64,000 nt of DNA, from sequence record PZ402305.1. One strand, 5' to 3'. The translations under genes were made by a program, and so were the position numbers. The notes under the pieces are model-generated. The model made no database searches, was not told where the DNA came from, and saw only the letters and a program-made list of their open reading frames with translations. Positions 45,900 to 50,020 of this stretch are shown one piece after another. The first letter of the stretch is position 1. Each line of letters starts with the position of its first letter. Source of the stretch: a phage.

Positions 45900-45930
45900 T
45901 AATAAGAAAGGGGCCGAAGCCCCTTGAGTG
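45900..45930 (-). terminator. Rho-independent terminator after Sir2 operon
   Basis: Reverse complement AAGGGGCTTCGGCCCCTTTCTTATT. Confidence 0.55.
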
Positions 45931-45932
45931 GT

Positions 45933-46733
45933 TTATTTGTTTAAGTGGTCTTCGACCATTTTAATGAAACCTTCATTGCTGAAGGCTGTTGCAGCTTTTT
46001 CTCGGTAAACAAAAACTCCACGATCTTCATAGAGAAGTGTTTCTTCGTAATTAACTCCAGGGTTAACTACAACCATTTTTGTTCCGATGTTAAGAGCAGG
46101 AAAAAGCTCCCAGTTAAAATTGATAACTTGATTAGAGCAACCCACTACAATCACCATATCTTGAGCCGTCAAGCCGTCTAAGATGTGGTACATATCGTTA
46201 TACAATGGGGCAGTCTCCCCAAAGAACACTACATTGGGCTTCACATACTTGTAATCATCTACATCGATAGCAGCATAGCCAACATCTTTGATGATTCTAT
46301 TGTCTACGATCACTTCAGGCAGGAAGCCGTGAACATGTAGAACATCTTCATGAACAACACCCGCTTGTTCCAGAAGATCATCTACGTTTGTCGTGATGTT
46401 GATAACACGATCACAGCCGTACTCTTGGAACCACTCTGCGATCTTGCAATGCGCAGCGTTAGGAGACACACTATCCATCTCTACGCGACGTTTATTGTAG
46501 AAGTCATGAGTTTTACGGTAGAGGTTGTATCCCTCTGCATCTAATCCACCAACAGTGCCAGGAACACACTGTTCTTGCTGGTAGCCAGCACGGAAATTGA
46601 AAATATCGCACACTTCAGAAAGGTCGTATTCATCCCACAAAGCTTTCCCACTATCTGTATCAGTGCGGAAAGTACGTACACCGCTATCGGCGCTTAGACC
46701 CGCGCCGCTGATCACTATTAATCGTCTTGGCAT
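45933..46733 (-). CDS. Sir2-family (sirtuin-like) NAD-dependent enzyme
   Basis: ISGAGLSADSGVRTFR (GAGIS..SGIP.FR-like), NITTNVDDLLEQAG, catalytic HVHG, VVFFGE, VVGCS; no CxxC zinc module. Confidence 0.75.
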   Translation of the reverse strand: MPRRLIVISGAGLSADSGVRTFRTDTDSGKALWDEYDLSEVCDIFNFRAGYQQEQCVPGTVGGLDAEGYNLYRKTHDFYNKRRVEMDSVSPNAAHCKIAEWFQEYGCDRVINITTNVDDLLEQAGVVHEDVLHVHGFLPEVIVDNRIIKDVGYAAIDVDDYKYVKPNVVFFGETAPLYNDMYHILDGLTAQDMVIVVGCSNQVINFNWELFPALNIGTKMVVVNPGVNYEETLLYEDRGVFVYREKAATAFSNEGFIKMVEDHLNK

Positions 46734-47209
46734 TCTTCCTCCTCATAATCATCATAATCTTCGTCATCCAAATCGTACACTTCGTCTTGAGAATAACTCA
46801 CTTCAAAGTAAATATCAAACTCCGCAAACAAACGTAGAATGTTGGACATGCTGTAATAATTATCGTAGGCAGATTCAGCTTCATAGTAAACATAAAGCAA
46901 ATGGTTAGCCTTATCATCTTCCAAATATTTCCCGTCTGCATACGCATAGTCTGCATATGCTTTACCTGCATCTTCCACAAGAGAACGATCAAGCAGAGTA
47001 GGAAATGGTTTCTCTTTTTCTTTTAGTTTGCTCACCAACCAGTGTGCAATATCATGCCAATCTGCATCCTCTCCGCTGAAGCAGCTTGCGACTTCGCCAA
47101 ACTTGGCATCTCCTAAGTCTCCGCTAATAGTGATCATGGTTGAACTATTGTAACCACAAGTTTCGCAATTTGAACAACTGTTGTGCACATGAATTTCTAC
47201 TTGAAACAT
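46718..47209 (-). CDS. hypothetical protein with Cys cluster and acidic Tyr/Asp/Glu tail
   Basis: Start set to ATG after GGGAGGAA; C-terminus DLDDEDYDDYEEEECQDD. Confidence 0.55.
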   Translation of the reverse strand: MFQVEIHVHNSCSNCETCGYNSSTMITISGDLGDAKFGEVASCFSGEDADWHDIAHWLVSKLKEKEKPFPTLLDRSLVEDAGKAYADYAYADGKYLEDDKANHLLYVYYEAESAYDNYYSMSNILRLFAEFDIYFEVSYSQDEVYDLDDEDYDDYEEEECQDD

Positions 47210-47267
47210 ATTTCCTCCCATAAAAGAAAAGCCCCCTGAAGCAGGAGGCTTTGTTCAGATATCGGCA

Positions 47268-47921
47268 CTATACCAGACTTTGAAGGTATTTGTCAAGGGC
47301 TTCTTGATCACCTTGACAAACATAGCAACGGAAGTCTTGAGCCGAAGGTTGTTTATTTTCATCCCAGTCCCAATAAACATTACCCTTATAACGTGAACCA
47401 GGAAACTCAAAAGAGGCTGTATGTGTAATGTATCCTGGGCCACCAGTGAAATCACAGAATGAGAATTGGGGGTATGCCGCCTTTACTGCCTCAATAAACC
47501 AAGCTTTACGATCTAAAGCTTCATTGATGCTATACGCATGTCTCTCCATTTCTTCCCACGTTTTCCAGACACTTCTCTCATCAGGAGAAAAGACAAGCCA
47601 TTCTGGAAGGTACAGAGTGTCATAGTAATCATCATATTCGATCTCGGAGGCGCACGAAGCTGACTCCTCCAGTTTTGAGTAATCAAAAGCAGAATATACC
47701 CACCAACCATCTTCCAGTAAGGCTTTGATAGGGACGAAGCCTTTATCAGCATATTGATCGAATTGTTTGACACGGTGGCTTGTGCAGTCTTCAAACTCAC
47801 ATTCTAAACGATATGCACCTTTTCGACGAGCCTCAAGACCGTGTGTACTGAAAATAACAACACTTCCTTCACCATCATTACGATCTACTTGATAAGCAAC
47901 TACTGGTTTTGAATTTGACAT
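47268..47921 (-). CDS. hypothetical protein (217 aa)
   Basis: Track ORF; stop/start overlap with upstream gene. Confidence 0.6.
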   Translation of the reverse strand: MSNSKPVVAYQVDRNDGEGSVVIFSTHGLEARRKGAYRLECEFEDCTSHRVKQFDQYADKGFVPIKALLEDGWWVYSAFDYSKLEESASCASEIEYDDYYDTLYLPEWLVFSPDERSVWKTWEEMERHAYSINEALDRKAWFIEAVKAAYPQFSFCDFTGGPGYITHTASFEFPGSRYKGNVYWDWDENKQPSAQDFRCYVCQGDQEALDKYLQSLV

Positions 47922-48604: not shown

Positions 48605-49010
48605 TACCCCTCCATTCAAGACAAGCCATAACTTTACGCCAATCACTTTCTGTAAGAAAAATCTCGTTTGCTTTCTTCCACAAATCTAAATCGTAAAGGG
48701 TTGGAATACGATATGTTAGTTCACAGAATCTATGCTCTTCTTCTGTAATATAACCAAAATGCAGAGCCACATCGTGAAACCAACACCAACCATGCATCTC
48801 TCGAACAACATGGTCATGTTGAGACATTATTTTATGCCGTAAACCTAACCAACAAGGAACAGATACTTTAGTAGTCTTTAATCTGTGTTCAACAGTATTA
48901 GAGTATTCAATAATAGCTGTCAGTTTCAATCGTGCTTTTTCTAAATCCTCATGCGTCACTTTGAAATAACTTTCTGAAAGATATCCACACATATTAATAA
49001 CCTCCTTCAA
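48597..49010 (-). CDS. hypothetical protein (137 aa)
   Basis: Track ORF; His/Cys/Trp-rich centre. Confidence 0.6.
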   Translation of the reverse strand: MKEVINMCGYLSESYFKVTHEDLEKARLKLTAIIEYSNTVEHRLKTTKVSVPCWLGLRHKIMSQHDHVVREMHGWCWFHDVALHFGYITEEEHRFCELTYRIPTLYDLDLWKKANEIFLTESDWRKVMACLEWRGNE

Positions 49011-49935
49011 AAGGCTTTACTACATGTTGATTAGCTTTAAAACGTTCAACATAGTCGTTTTCGCCCATGTTTTCATATAGCTTAATAACAACATAAAAGT
49101 TTTCCCAAGCATATTCCCTAAACCAACCACTAGTGATGGATGTGCAGACTTTAGATAAAGCCATTATAAAACTTTGCTTAGGGGTTGGACCTCCGATCTC
49201 TTCACCGAAAGGAATTTGTGAACGTTCCAAAGCCAAAACACACGCTTCTTCATAAACACCTAACAGCCGCACATGTTTTGGTTGAGCAAAAAACTTTTCT
49301 TTGCTGGTCATAACTTCACTTCCATCTTTCATATAAGATTTATATGCTGGAGCATCCATTAACGCGATTGCTTCATGGATAGAATCATGATCATAAACAT
49401 ACGGAACCTCGTCACCTTTAAAGAACTCTTTACTTTTTACGTTTAAGTTCGGATGAGAGTAAGTGTATGTTTCTTTCTCACGCAACTCATAAATACTCTT
49501 AAGATTTTCTGGGATCTTTGCGCCCAGTGACCGCATGAAATGAATATCTTTCATAGTTTTAAAGAAGTGAGGACTATCCTTTTTAAAACGATGACTCATT
49601 TTAAGAAGGTAGAGCACATCTAAAGGAGCAACAACATGTCCAGCGTAAGTTCGACGAACATCATCAGAATCTTCACAATAACTAATCAAAGCTTCTGTGC
49701 TATCTCCTTGAGAAGCAATATCGTATTCCAAATGTGCACCAGCTATCATTTTGACATGGCCTTTGTTCCCTTTACGTTCTACAAGTTCAACAAACTCGTC
49801 TTGAGAGAACATTTTTGATAATTCTTCCCACTCTTGTTCTGTACACAGGTAATCTAAATCTACACAAGGGCGATACAAGTCTTTTCCCATGTCCATAGCA
49901 TGAATTTGTAATGCACGGCTACCAATTAACACCAT
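48994..49935 (-). CDS. hypothetical protein with possible nucleotidyltransferase-fold N-terminus
   Basis: N-terminal LIGSRAL ... VDLDYL resembles GS...DxD minimal NTase signature (weak). Confidence 0.55.
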   Translation of the reverse strand: MVLIGSRALQIHAMDMGKDLYRPCVDLDYLCTEQEWEELSKMFSQDEFVELVERKGNKGHVKMIAGAHLEYDIASQGDSTEALISYCEDSDDVRRTYAGHVVAPLDVLYLLKMSHRFKKDSPHFFKTMKDIHFMRSLGAKIPENLKSIYELREKETYTYSHPNLNVKSKEFFKGDEVPYVYDHDSIHEAIALMDAPAYKSYMKDGSEVMTSKEKFFAQPKHVRLLGVYEEACVLALERSQIPFGEEIGGPTPKQSFIMALSKVCTSITSGWFREYAWENFYVVIKLYENMGENDYVERFKANQHVVKPFEGGY

Positions 49936-49944
49936 AATATTTCT

Positions 49945-49980
49945 CCTCTATTGGTTGATAGGTTAAGTTTATCAAGCTTC
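49945..49980 (-). promoter_or_regulatory. sigma70-like promoter of Sir2 operon
   Basis: Reverse complement TTGACA-N17-TAAACT upstream of GAGGAGAAATATT-ATG. Confidence 0.5.
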
Positions 49981-49987
49981 CAGATTC

Positions 49988-50020
49988 CTGTCAATAAAAA
50001 ACCCGCCGAAGCGGGTTATT
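49988..50020 (-). terminator. Rho-independent terminator upstream of Sir2 operon
   Basis: Reverse complement ACCCGCTTCGGCGGGTTTTTTATT. Confidence 0.65.

What the first reader, a model, noticed from the sequence alone, without database searches (positions are those of the whole stretch)
45900..50020. Self-contained operon: Sir2-like enzyme + truncated C5-methyltransferase-like protein + possible nucleotidyltransferase + three unknowns
Six minus-strand genes (48994..49935, 48597..49010, 47921..48604, 47268..47921, 46718..47209, 45933..46733) sit between their own TTGACA-N17-TAAACT promoter and terminators at both ends. The Sir2 protein keeps the NAD-binding and catalytic His motifs but has no zinc module. 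The methyltransferase-like protein keeps FDGSG / PPC / ENP catalytic-core motifs but is too short to carry a target-recognition domain. I do not recall this gene combination as a described phage or defence module; it could be a nucleic-acid or nucleotide modification pathway, an NAD-consuming counter-defence, or a phage-borne defence cassette.
Basis: partly seen in the sequence, partly recalled or inferred. Interest (0 to 1): 0.8.

Follow-up and report, generated by a model that had tools for sequence, protein, structure and literature searches.

The report
Phage accessory gene patchwork, not module
Six neighbouring genes of a phAPEC8-type coliphage are transcribed together but are a patchwork of genes that occur separately in other phages (a zinc-less sirtuin, a compact cytosine methyltransferase, a MenT-like nucleotidyltransferase and three unknowns); the only partnership that holds across distant phages links the nucleotidyltransferase to small proteins encoded just upstream, outside the flagged region.

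Summary
The window is a Phapecoctavirus, 99% identical to phAPEC8. The six minus-strand ORFs, the upstream terminator and promoter, and the hairpin after Sir2 are all there.

All three domain calls hold:
- Gene 6 is a CobB/SIRT5-like sirtuin without the zinc module. This is already described for phage Sir2/CobB.
- Gene 1 (DUF7277+DUF7275) has a MenT1/AbiEii-like nucleotidyltransferase fold.

The "novel six-gene module" reading fails. Each enzyme family is large and distributed independently. The genes are neighbours only in phAPEC8 relatives, where the whole region is colinear. One related 153-kb phage carries the three enzyme genes 30–67 kb apart.

The real cross-lineage association lies partly outside the flagged region. 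In 71 of 80 diverse phage loci, gene 1 is preceded by one to six genes for small proteins ending in W-x-S-S-x-C. Controls gave 1 such ORF in 10,452. I found no description of this pairing; its function is inferred, not shown.

The parts
50000..50017 (.). Terminator hairpin (AACCCGCTTCGGCGGGTT plus T-run) that closes the upstream small-gene unit. It reads as a terminator on both strands.
   Evidence: Annotated as a terminator in phAPEC8. Conserved in L002, L003 and L008.
49966..49994 (-). Sigma-70-type promoter TTGACA-N17-TAAACT with an extended-10 TG; drives genes 1-4.
   Evidence: The -35 and -10 are conserved while the spacer varies.
48994..49935 (-). Gene 1, 313 aa: DUF7277+DUF7275, a MenT1/AbiEii-like nucleotidyltransferase core with an extra C-terminal helical region.
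48597..48992 (-). Gene 2, about 131 aa (137 aa from the TTG at 49010): unknown, phrog_16551, lineage-restricted.
   Evidence: Present in only 3 of 80 gene-1 loci.
47921..48604 (-). Gene 3, 227 aa: compact Dcm-like C5-cytosine methyltransferase (phrog_757) with motifs I, IV, VI and a IX-like motif, and a minimal target-recognition region.
47268..47921 (-). Gene 4, 217 aa: unknown, phrog_8514. Its start overlaps the gene 3 stop codon.
   Evidence: No PDB or Pfam match.
47228..47252 (-). Internal intrinsic-terminator-like hairpin (11 pairs plus TTTTCTTTT) between genes 4 and 5.
   Evidence: The structure is conserved with different stem and loop sequence in L003 and L084.
47267..47296 (-). Promoter-like TTGACA-N18-TATAGT (11 of 12 matches, TG) inside the end of gene 4 and upstream of the internal hairpin. 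Function uncertain.
   Evidence: It lies in coding sequence, so its conservation is not informative.
46718..47209 (-). Gene 5, 163 aa: very acidic protein (pI 4.05, 40 D+E) with an N-terminal CxxCxxC and a poly-acidic C-terminus; phrog_9509, unknown.
45933..46733 (-). Gene 6, 266 aa: zinc-less class III (CobB/SIRT5-like) sirtuin, phrog_2162.
   Evidence: Pfam SIR2 E=2e-19. CobB 1s5p E=1e-15 and SIRT5 E=2e-10. Invariant GAGxS, FYNKRR, TTNVDD, HVHG, FFGE and VNP. Found in 979 phage records.
45908..45925 (-). GC hairpin after Sir2 with a weak T-tract; probably a leaky terminator.
45617..45889 (-). Seventh co-directional gene, 90 aa, phrog_15991, unknown. It travels with the block in close relatives.
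45590..45613 (.). Strong bidirectional terminator at the point where the plus-strand and minus-strand gene blocks converge.
   Evidence: Annotated in phAPEC8.
50026..50298 (-). Small acidic protein ending ...GVWISSSSMC (tail family, phrog_899). It is the first of three paralogues upstream of gene 1.
50308..50526 (-). Small acidic protein ending ...GVWHSSSC, with an internal second copy of the motif (DWQSSSCYGE); tail family.
50807..51004 (-). Small acidic protein (65 aa) ending ...NWHPSSLSC; tail family.
50526..50795 (-). Acb2 (T4 Vs.4) homologue, an anti-CBASS cyclic-nucleotide sponge, lying among the tail-protein genes.
   Evidence: Pfam Acb2/Tad1 hairpin E=1e-19. PDB 7uq2 Vs.4 E=1.6e-42.

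Best explanation
The flagged region is a promoter- and terminator-bounded stretch of the accessory gene region of a phAPEC8-type myovirus. The sigma-70-type promoters suggest early transcription by host polymerase, but expression timing was not tested. The region holds functionally unrelated genes that sit together by descent, not because they form one pathway.

1. Gene 6 is a class III sirtuin that has lost the zinc ribbon. It keeps the NAD pocket, the catalytic His and the F-Y-x-x-R-R stretch used by CobB and SIRT5 for acyl-lysine. It most likely removes acyl groups from host or phage proteins using NAD+ (inferred).
2. Gene 3 is a full-length member of a very widespread, stand-alone phage family of compact C5-cytosine methyltransferases. 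It most likely methylates phage DNA with one fixed specificity (inferred from the fold, the catalytic motifs and the unusually uniform variable region).
3. Gene 1 is a MenT1/AbiEii-type nucleotidyltransferase. Its true partners are not the five downstream genes. They are the small acidic proteins encoded just upstream (50026-51004), which end in an invariant W-x-S-S-x-C tail. The most likely mechanism is that the enzyme recognises this tail and transfers a nucleotide (NMP) to the invariant serine hydroxyl, or is regulated through the tail (inferred, not shown).
4. Genes 2, 4 and 5 are lineage-restricted unknowns.
For: Identity and transcription signals:
- 99% identical to phAPEC8 and TSP7_1.
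- Promoter and terminators.

Independent distribution of the gene families:
- The gene 3 family occurs in 1488 phage records (Drexlerviridae, Webervirus, Dhillonvirus, Vequintavirinae). It is alone in 76 of 80 loci and has no conserved neighbour.
- The Sir2 family occurs in 979 records, including T5-like, Vequintavirinae, KVP40-like and jumbo phages. It is alone in 19 of 30 loci.
- The gene 1 family occurs in 735 records, including T4-like, Acinetobacter, Pseudomonas and actinophages. The other five genes are nearby in only 3-9 of 80 loci.
- All three enzyme genes are dispersed on one 153-kb contig, at about 55, 86 and 122 kb.
- phi92-type phages lack genes 1 and 3.
- The flanks are colinear wherever the block is intact.

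Folds and motifs.

Gene 1 and the tail proteins:
- The motif W.{1,2}S[SA].{0,2}C at the very C-terminus occurs in 195 ORFs in 71 of 80 gene-1 loci. Of these, 192 are same-strand and upstream, 3 are downstream and none are on the opposite strand.
- Controls gave 0 of 8554 ORFs in 76 methyltransferase loci and 1 of 1898 in 19 Sir2-only loci. The window has exactly three.
- Loci without gene 1 lack the tail genes as well.
- 57 of 58 global family representatives end in the motif.
- A sister subfamily of the enzyme has a different small companion. It is adjacent in KVP40, Gordonia and Streptomyces phages and fused to the enzyme in an Alteromonas phage.
- MenT1, the closest solved structure, is itself partnered with a 68-aa helical protein encoded upstream (PMC10435456).
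Against: - The order gene 1 - gene 3 - gene 4 - Sir2 persists down to about 50% (Sir2) and 33% (gene 4) identity.
- In L096, L099, L100, L102 and L104 the block is inverted as one piece relative to both flanks, so it behaves as a physical cassette (L096 lacks gene 1).
- Start and stop codons overlap for genes 1/2, 2/3, 3/4 and 5/6, which suggests coupled translation.
- In KVP40 a gene-1-like gene lies 2.1 kb from Sir2.
- None of the enzymatic activities was tested.
- The locus sets are the best 80 matches and contain many related phages, so the counts are not independent events.
- A terminator and promoter separate the tail-protein genes from gene 1, both here and in phage Moon. The tail genes and gene 1 are therefore not strictly one operon.
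Confidence: 0.7

Rival explanations
1. The six genes are one functional pathway: a nucleic-acid or nucleotide modification route, or an NAD-consuming counter-defence, in which the nucleotidyltransferase, the methyltransferase-like protein and the sirtuin act on a common substrate.
For: - The genes are co-directional and tightly packed with overlapping start and stop codons, and they have their own conserved promoter.
- The order of genes 1, 3, 4 and 6 is conserved in diverged relatives, and the block is inverted as one unit.
- Gene 4 is always next to Sir2 in the 16 fetched loci where it was found. Distant gene-4 relatives in Pseudomonas, Xanthomonas and Ralstonia phages were not checked for Sir2.
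- In KVP40 a gene-1-like gene lies close to Sir2.
Against: - Each enzyme family is mostly found without the others.
- The three enzyme genes are 30-67 kb apart on one related contig.
- phi92-like phages drop genes 1 and 3 but keep genes 4-6.
- A conserved terminator splits the block.
- The flanking genes are equally syntenic.
- Phages of this group are reported as exceptionally sensitive to restriction-modification systems (PMC8594841). That argues against a protective DNA hypermodification.
Confidence: 0.1
2. Gene 1 is a tRNA-directed nucleotidyltransferase like MenT1/MenT3. It would either shut off host translation or repair tRNA 3' ends. The upstream tail proteins would be its inhibitors or regulators, making a MenAT1-like toxin-antitoxin arrangement carried by phages, not its substrates.
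For: - The closest structures are the tRNA-modifying toxins MenT1, TglT/MenT3 and MenT4.
- Counterparts of the MenT1 catalytic D, K and D residues are invariant or nearly so (PMC10435456).
- MenA1 is a small helical protein encoded upstream of MenT1. The tail proteins have an N-terminal amphipathic helix and are also encoded upstream.
- The phages that carry gene 1 are large. phAPEC8-type phages carry 10-11 tRNA genes (10.1101/2020.01.19.911818), and a tRNA cluster lies next to the Gordonia homologue.
Against: - One to six divergent paralogues share only the tail. That fits a common recognition element on several substrates or adaptors better than a single cognate antitoxin.
- There is no sequence similarity to MenA1 or to DUF1814 families.
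- Gene 1 has about 120 extra C-terminal residues with invariant His, Asp and Glu that MenT1 lacks.
- A terminator separates the tail genes from gene 1.
Confidence: 0.25
3. The block is a phage-borne defence or superinfection-exclusion cassette in which Sir2 acts as an NAD-depleting effector, as in Thoeris, DSR or SIR2-HerA.
For: - Sirtuin domains without a zinc module are typical of defence NADases (general knowledge).
- An anti-defence gene (Acb2) lies nearby, so this is an arms-race region.
Against: - No PADLOC defence model matches Sir2 beyond E=0.001 over 38 residues.
- The best relatives are the deacylases CobB and SIRT5, with the acyl-lysine F-Y-x-x-R-R, FGE and VNP elements kept.
- There is no sensor or partner domain, and no conserved neighbour across lineages.
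- The family is a conserved gene of several strictly lytic phage groups, including T5-like phages and Vequintavirinae.
Confidence: 0.05

Closest known systems
E. coli CobB / human SIRT5 (class III sirtuins) and the phage Sir2/CobB proteins of KVP40, phiSt2 and T5-like phages
   Same: Rossmann NAD-binding motifs, the catalytic HG histidine, the F-Y-x-x-R-R stretch and the FGE and VNP tunnel elements. The phage family, and its lack of zinc ligands, is already described (PMC5107563) and annotated in hundreds of genomes.
   Different: No four-Cys zinc ribbon. TTNVDD replaces TQNID. A 26-30 residue insertion follows the first NAD-binding loop and is absent in some relatives. Scores are far below the NCBIfam CobB equivalog cut-offs. 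No substrate is known.
Bacterial type II C5-cytosine methyltransferases (M.HhaI, M.HaeIII), the DNMT3A/B catalytic domain, and phage 'Dcm-like' orphan methyltransferases (e.g. Tls dcm)
   Different: It is about 100 residues shorter than M.HhaI. The region between motif VI and motif IX is only about 80 residues and is nearly invariant across the family, not variable between members. No clear motif X. It is below the Pfam gathering score (11.6 against 22). Methylation has not been demonstrated for this family as far as I found.
MenT1-MenA1 (MenAT1) and AbiEii/DUF1814 nucleotidyltransferase toxins
   Same: The Pol-beta-type fold with G-S...D-x-D, plus the downstream Lys and Asp. The small partner protein is encoded immediately upstream on the same strand.
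   Different: No detectable sequence homology. About 120 extra C-terminal residues. The partners are one to six paralogues defined by an invariant C-terminal W-x-S-S-x-C tail. The system is carried by lytic phages, not by bacterial toxin-antitoxin loci. Neither toxicity nor a tRNA substrate has been tested.
HEPN-MNT (type VII toxin-antitoxin), in which a minimal nucleotidyltransferase AMPylates its partner protein (from my own knowledge, not checked here)
   Same: A Pol-beta-fold nucleotidyltransferase genetically paired with a small protein. It is a precedent for nucleotide transfer to a partner side-chain hydroxyl.
   Different: The partner here is not a HEPN protein. The acceptor would be Ser, not Tyr. 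No evidence for the chemistry was obtained.
T4 Vs.4 / Acb2 (anti-CBASS sponge)
   Same: The 89-aa protein at 50526-50795 aligns end to end with Vs.4 (E=1.6e-42).
   Different: It is not part of the flagged six genes. It sits among the tail-protein genes.

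Membership tests
Sirtuin (Pfam SIR2, PF02146) | Profile score above the curated cut-off | tested here: met
   70.5 bits against a cut-off of 24, E=2.3e-19.
Sirtuin (Pfam SIR2, PF02146) | NAD-binding GAGxS loop and the catalytic His of the HG motif | tested here: met
   GAGLSADSG and HVHG align with CobB GAGISAESG and HMHG. Both are invariant in 5 homologues.
Sirtuin (Pfam SIR2, PF02146) | Four-cysteine zinc-binding module | tested here: not met
   There is no Cys between H135-G136 and P166, and the segment is shorter than in CobB. 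The same is reported for the KVP40 and phiSt2 proteins.
CobB equivalog (NCBIfam NF040867 / PRK00481) | Score above the curated equivalog cut-off | tested here: not met
   Best score 95.6 bits against a cut-off of 243.
Class III sirtuin (CobB/SIRT5 type) | Y-x-x-R acyl-lysine recognition pair | tested here: met
   F78-Y79-N80-K81-R82-R83 aligns with CobB FYNARR and is invariant. The functional meaning of the pair comes from my own knowledge of SIRT5 and CobB.
Defence-type SIR2 NADase (Thoeris ThsA, DSR, SIR2-HerA) | Match to defence-system profiles, or a fused or adjacent sensor domain | tested here: not met
   Only a 38-residue PADLOC hit, E=0.001. No conserved neighbour.
C5-cytosine DNA methyltransferase | Motif I FxGxG, motif IV PC and motif VI ENV | tested here: met
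   F9, D10, G11, S12, G13; F75, P76, C78; E119, N120, P121, V122. All are invariant in 32 sequences.
C5-cytosine DNA methyltransferase | Catalytic-domain fold | tested here: met
C5-cytosine DNA methyltransferase | Pfam DNA_methylase score above the gathering cut-off | tested here: not met
   11.6 bits against 22, E=0.18, N-terminal 90 residues only. A profile search against PDB sequences found nothing.
C5-cytosine DNA methyltransferase | Variable target-recognition domain of normal size between motifs VIII and IX, and motif X | tested here: not met
   Only about 80 residues lie between ENPV and the motif IX-like LRSLT. That stretch is nearly invariant across the family, and no GNxV motif follows.
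C5-cytosine DNA methyltransferase | SAM-dependent methylation of cytosine C5 in DNA | not testable with these tools
   Needs sequencing of virion DNA for 5mC, or an in vitro assay.
MenT/AbiEii (DUF1814) nucleotidyltransferase | Pol-beta signature hG[GS]...D-x-[DE] and the downstream catalytic Lys and Asp | tested here: met
   G5, S6, D26, D28 and K112 are invariant; R116 and D130 are 90% or more conserved. They were compared by position with MenT1 T39/D41/K137/D152. I did not make a residue-level structural superposition.
MenT/AbiEii (DUF1814) nucleotidyltransferase | Fold similarity to solved members | tested here: met
MenT/AbiEii (DUF1814) nucleotidyltransferase | Sequence-profile membership | tested here: not met
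   Pfam and NCBIfam give only DUF7275 and DUF7277. PADLOC gives nothing. A profile search against PDB sequences gives nothing.
MenT/AbiEii (DUF1814) nucleotidyltransferase | Growth toxicity, tRNA 3'-end nucleotidylation and neutralisation by the upstream partner | not testable with these tools
   Needs expression and tRNA sequencing.
Single functional six-gene module | Co-occurrence of the genes across unrelated phage lineages | tested here: not met
Nucleotidyltransferase plus tail-protein pair (proposed here) | Tail-protein genes specifically adjacent to gene 1 across lineages, and lost together with it | tested here: met
   71 of 80 loci against 1 of 10,452 control ORFs; 192 of 195 are same-strand and upstream. 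Co-absence in L084 and L096. I could not run the reciprocal test, from tail genes to gene 1.

The most novel reading that the evidence does not exclude
Gene 1 and the small proteins encoded upstream of it form a previously undescribed, widespread phage system. It occurs in T4-like, jumbo, ~98-kb Pseudomonas-type and phAPEC8-type phages. A MenT-like nucleotidyltransferase would recognise an invariant C-terminal W-x-S-S-x-C tail on one to six divergent small acidic proteins and modify it covalently, either by nucleotide (NMP) addition to the serine or by a follow-on reaction with the terminal cysteine. That would make a family of post-translationally armed effectors, plausibly anti-defence factors given the Acb2 gene embedded among them.
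Probability: 0.3. Interest if true: 0.75.

Novelty: new member of a known kind. Interest (0 to 1): 0.4.

Why it matters
For the finding as written, the result is mainly a correction. The block is not a new pathway, and two of its three enzymes belong to families that are already annotated in hundreds of phage genomes, though still uncharacterised biochemically.

Three points remain useful:
1. DUF7277+DUF7275, a family of more than 2000 protein clusters with no assigned function, can now be read as a MenT1/AbiEii-type nucleotidyltransferase.
2. That enzyme has a statistically very strong and specific genomic partner: small proteins with an invariant Trp-Ser-Ser-Cys C-terminus. This gives a directly testable hypothesis about protein nucleotidylation, or toxin-antitoxin-like control, in lytic phages.
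3. The compact Dcm-like family keeps its "variable" region invariant across very different phages. If it is active, it would be one of the smallest C5-methyltransferases known to me, with a single fixed specificity. That is worth one methylome experiment.

Tried and rejected
- **Split methyltransferase.** I tested whether gene 4 supplies the missing target-recognition part, as in M.AquI or M.EcoHK31I. Rejected: gene 4 is absent from 76 of 80 methyltransferase loci, and no neighbour is conserved across lineages.
- **Gene 2 as the antitoxin or partner of gene 1.** Rejected: it is present in 3 of 80 gene-1 loci.
- **HD-phosphohydrolase reading of the gene-1 C-terminus** (conserved H...HD...H pattern). 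No Pfam, PDB-sequence or fold support.
- **Sir2 as a defence NADase.** No PADLOC support.
- **Link to glycosylated 5-hydroxycytosine DNA modification.** That pathway uses ThyA-like enzymes; the paper contains no occurrence of 'methyltransferase', 'Sir2', 'rV5' or 'phAPEC8'.
- **Sequence-profile searches against PDB.** The gene 3, gene 1 and gene 4 alignments found nothing.
- The fold search against afdb50 was unavailable. The search for related loci with the tail-protein alignment failed because no stretch was conserved enough, so I could not run the reciprocal association test.
- **Literature.** Searches for DUF7275, DUF7277, the PHROG ids, and 'C-terminal cysteine' together with nucleotidyltransferase returned nothing. 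A search on AbiEii, phage genomes, nucleotidyltransferase and anti-defense returned 27 papers, none relevant by title or abstract. This is absence from the held library only.

Full report
**What the window is.** The 4.1-kb region is 99.5% identical to Dompiswa phage TSP7_1 and 99.2% identical to Escherichia phage phAPEC8. It is found, at least 80% covered, in 63 phage records, nearly all phAPEC8 relatives (Stephanstirmvirinae). In phAPEC8 the six genes are gp72-gp77. They are annotated as "putative Sir2-like protein" plus hypotheticals. RefSeq and other records add "DNA methyltransferase" or "Dcm" for the third gene.

**Checking the observation.**
- All six minus-strand ORFs exist as described.
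- The upstream boundary is as stated. A GC hairpin with a T-run lies at 50017..50000. It runs straight into TTGACA-N17-TAAACT (with TG) at 49994..49966, followed by a GAGGAG ribosome-binding site and the ATG.
- Promoter-like sites as a class are not enriched here (21 against 18.0 +/- 3.7 in shuffles). This terminator-promoter pair, however, is conserved in phages whose gene-1 protein is only 69-77% identical, while the spacer between the hexamers varies. I accept it as real.
Diverged relatives keep a hairpin there with a different stem and loop sequence.
- The hairpin after Sir2 (45925..45908) has a weak T-tract. A seventh co-directional 90-aa gene follows before the strong bidirectional terminator at 45590..45613, where the plus- and minus-strand gene blocks converge.
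- The block is therefore a transcription unit with internal punctuation, not a clean six-gene operon.

**Gene 6 (Sir2).**
- It passes Pfam SIR2 (70.5 bits against a cut-off of 24).
- Its closest solved relatives are E. coli CobB (E=1e-15) and SIRT5 (E=2e-10).
- GAGLSADSG, F-Y-N-K-R-R, TTNVDD, HVHG, FFGE and VNP are invariant among five homologues.
- The segment between HG and PNVVFFGE is short and has no cysteine, so the zinc ribbon is absent.
- It stays far below the NCBIfam CobB equivalog cut-offs and has no meaningful hit to defence-system models.
- The F-Y-x-x-R-R stretch is, from my own knowledge, the class III signature that SIRT5 and CobB use for acidic acyl-lysines.
- This family occurs in 979 phage records: T5-like phages, Vequintavirinae, KVP40-like phages and jumbo phages.
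- A 2016 paper already modelled the phage protein on CobB, noted the missing zinc site in the KVP40 and phiSt2 proteins, and listed T5, SPC35 and others as carriers (PMC5107563).

**Gene 3 (methyltransferase-like).**
- Sequence profiles barely see it: Pfam DNA_methylase E=0.18, PADLOC MTase_II E=1e-4.
- Its family is very large. It gave 870 clusters in the protein search, the best 120 at 60-99% identity, and 1488 phage records.
- In 32 diverse members FDGSG, FPxCT, ENPVGK and TKQLRSLTPRGFARAV are invariant or nearly so. The roughly 80 residues between ENPV and the motif IX-like element are also conserved.
- It is therefore a genuine C5-methyltransferase fold with a minimal recognition region. 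It is full length for its family, not truncated.
- In 76 of 80 viral loci centred on it, none of the other five genes is within 8 kb. No neighbour is conserved across lineages, which rules out a split enzyme with gene 4.
- The BASEL study notes that such C5-methyltransferases are abundant in Drexlerviridae without a clear link to restriction resistance. It also reports Vequintavirinae and relatives as exceptionally sensitive to restriction-modification systems (PMC8594841).

**Gene 1 (DUF7277+DUF7275).**
- Pfam gives only two domains of unknown function. The family has 2211 clusters and occurs in 735 phage records, including T4-like genera, Acinetobacter, Aeromonas and Pseudomonas phages and actinophages.
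- In the alignment G5, S6, D26, D28, E70 and K112 are invariant, and R116 and D130 are nearly so.
- MenT1's catalytic residues are T39, D41, K137 and D152. Its antitoxin MenA1 is a 68-aa helical protein encoded immediately upstream (PMC10435456).

**Is it a module?** No.
- Sir2-centred loci: 19 of 30 have none of the other genes within 8 kb, even with iterated HMMs. Two of these loci are cut close to the gene.
- Gene-1-centred loci: gene 3 in 9 of 80, Sir2 in 8, gene 4 in 8, genes 2 and 5 in 3 each.
- On one 153-kb contig Sir2, gene 1 and gene 3 lie at about 55, 86 and 122 kb.
- phi92-like phages keep genes 2, 4, 5 and 6 but lack genes 1 and 3.
- Where genes 1, 3, 4 and 6 are adjacent, the flanking genes are colinear with the window too. 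Descent explains the adjacency.
- The best counter-evidence is that in L096, L099, L100, L102 and L104 the block is inverted as one piece relative to both flanks (L096 lacks gene 1), and that start and stop codons overlap within it. This shows a physical cassette bounded by the hairpins, not a shared function.

**What gene 1 really travels with.**
- Clustering the neighbours of gene 1 showed a family of small same-strand genes just upstream in 65 of 80 loci. Their products all end in W-x-S-S-x-C, with Cys as the last residue.
- I counted ORFs of 40-200 aa that match W.{1,2}S[SA].{0,2}C at the very C-terminus:

| Locus set | Motif ORFs | All ORFs | Loci with at least one |
|---|---|---|---|
| Gene-1-centred (80 loci) | 195 | 4826 | 71 |
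| Methyltransferase-centred, no gene 1 (76 loci, 1.04 Mb) | 0 | 8554 | 0 |
| Sir2-only (19 loci) | 1 | 1898 | 1 |

- Of the 195, 192 are same-strand and upstream of gene 1, 3 are downstream and none are on the opposite strand. The single control hit is on a contig fragment of a phage that does carry gene 1.
- The 64-kb window has exactly three such ORFs: 50026-50298, 50308-50568 and 50807-51004. All lie directly upstream of the terminator-promoter pair that starts the flagged block.
- Loci that lack gene 1 (phi92-like L084 and L096) lack the tail genes too. The 153-kb contig where gene 1 sits far from gene 3 and Sir2 has four of them upstream.
- A profile of the three window paralogues, searched against 1.84 billion representatives, found 58 proteins. 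Of these, 57 end in the motif.
- The proteins are acidic (pI about 4). They have an N-terminal amphipathic helix, a YGMGG..YYP element and an acidic linker. Some carry a second internal copy of the motif.
- They match PHROG 899 (unknown function) and no Pfam family.
- A shorter sister subfamily of the enzyme lacks these genes but has a different small companion. It lies upstream in KVP40, is present in two copies downstream in a Gordonia and a Streptomyces phage, and is fused to the enzyme's C-terminus in Alteromonas phage PT11-V22 (E=1.5e-13). The fusion suggests that enzymes of this superfamily act with a small partner protein.

**How it most likely works.**
- *Shown:* the fold of the enzyme, its conserved catalytic-type residues, and a highly specific genomic association with tail-bearing small proteins.
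- *Inferred:* the tail is the element the enzyme recognises. It is the only part shared by up to six divergent paralogues, so I favour a substrate or adaptor relationship. That would be nucleotide (NMP) transfer to the invariant serine, with HEPN-MNT AMPylation as a precedent from my own knowledge. I put this at roughly 0.3.
- A MenAT1-like arrangement, with tRNA as substrate and the small proteins as inhibitors, is the main rival at about 0.25.
- For Sir2 and gene 3 the most likely activities are NAD-dependent lysine deacylation and fixed-specificity DNA C5-methylation. Both are inferred from conserved catalytic elements only.

**Novelty and score.**
- The six-gene combination is lineage-specific synteny of known or DUF families in a genome published in 2012. 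The Sir2 and Dcm-like calls repeat existing annotation.
- The new elements are the fold-level assignment of DUF7277+DUF7275 and its partnership with the tail proteins. I found no description of either in the held literature.
- I score the finding as written modestly and flag the enzyme-tail pair as the part worth an experiment.

Noticed in passing
window 50026-50298, 50308-50526, 50807-51004 (minus strand); loci L113-L192: A family of small acidic proteins ends in an invariant W-x-S-S-x-C tail with Cys as the last residue. One to six tandem copies lie directly upstream of the gene-1 nucleotidyltransferase in 71 of 80 diverse phage loci. The motif is essentially absent from control loci (1 of 10,452 ORFs).
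   Followed up: yes
window 50526-50795 (minus strand): An 89-aa homologue of T4 Vs.4/Acb2, the anti-CBASS cyclic-nucleotide sponge (PDB 7uq2, E=1.6e-42), sits among the tail-protein genes. This suggests an anti-defence neighbourhood.
   Followed up: yes
L096, L099, L100, L102, L104 compared with window 45600-51300: In more distant relatives the block gene 1 - gene 3 - gene 4 - Sir2 is inverted as one piece relative to both conserved flanks (L096 shows the same orientation but lacks gene 1). The breakpoints are near the bounding hairpins, and one tail-protein gene is left on the far side.
   Followed up: partly
L194 3836-5438, L195 3860-5302, L196 3543-4600, L197 4001-5152: A short (~250 aa) sister subfamily of the gene-1 enzyme pairs with a different small protein that has a GGGEGGSEY...EV.P...VT.Y C-terminus. 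It is adjacent in KVP40, duplicated in Gordonia and Streptomyces phages, and fused to the enzyme in Alteromonas phage PT11-V22.
   Followed up: partly
L196 (KVP40) 3839-4600 and 6738-7478: In KVP40 the gene-1-like gene (KVP40.0037) lies 2.1 kb upstream of Sir2/CobB (KVP40.0043). This is the only case I saw outside the phAPEC8 lineage. It was not found in three other distant Sir2 loci (L108-L110).
   Followed up: partly
window 51257-51769 (minus strand): A 170-aa ORF further upstream ends ...EEVLWQSSDQ. This resembles the W-x-S-S tail but lacks the terminal Cys. It may be a degenerate or divergent member.
   Followed up: no
window 46718-47209 (minus strand): Gene 5 is extremely acidic (pI 4.05, 40 D+E in 163 aa). 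It has a poly-acidic C-terminus (DLDDEDYDDYEEEECQDD) and an N-terminal CSNCETC. This composition would fit a DNA mimic, but I ran no test.
   Followed up: no
phage database records MG065650.1, MG065689.1, MG065635.1 and others: Several records labelled 'Campylobacter phage' (host C. jejuni) are 98-99% identical to E. coli phAPEC8-type or rV5-type phages at these genes. They are probably mislabelled or contaminant genomes.
   Followed up: no
L193 (Citrobacter phage Moon) 2855-4936: In the T4-like phage Moon, three tail-protein genes are followed by an annotated terminator and one more small gene before the gene-1 homologue. The same 'terminator between partners' layout is seen in the window.
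   Followed up: partly
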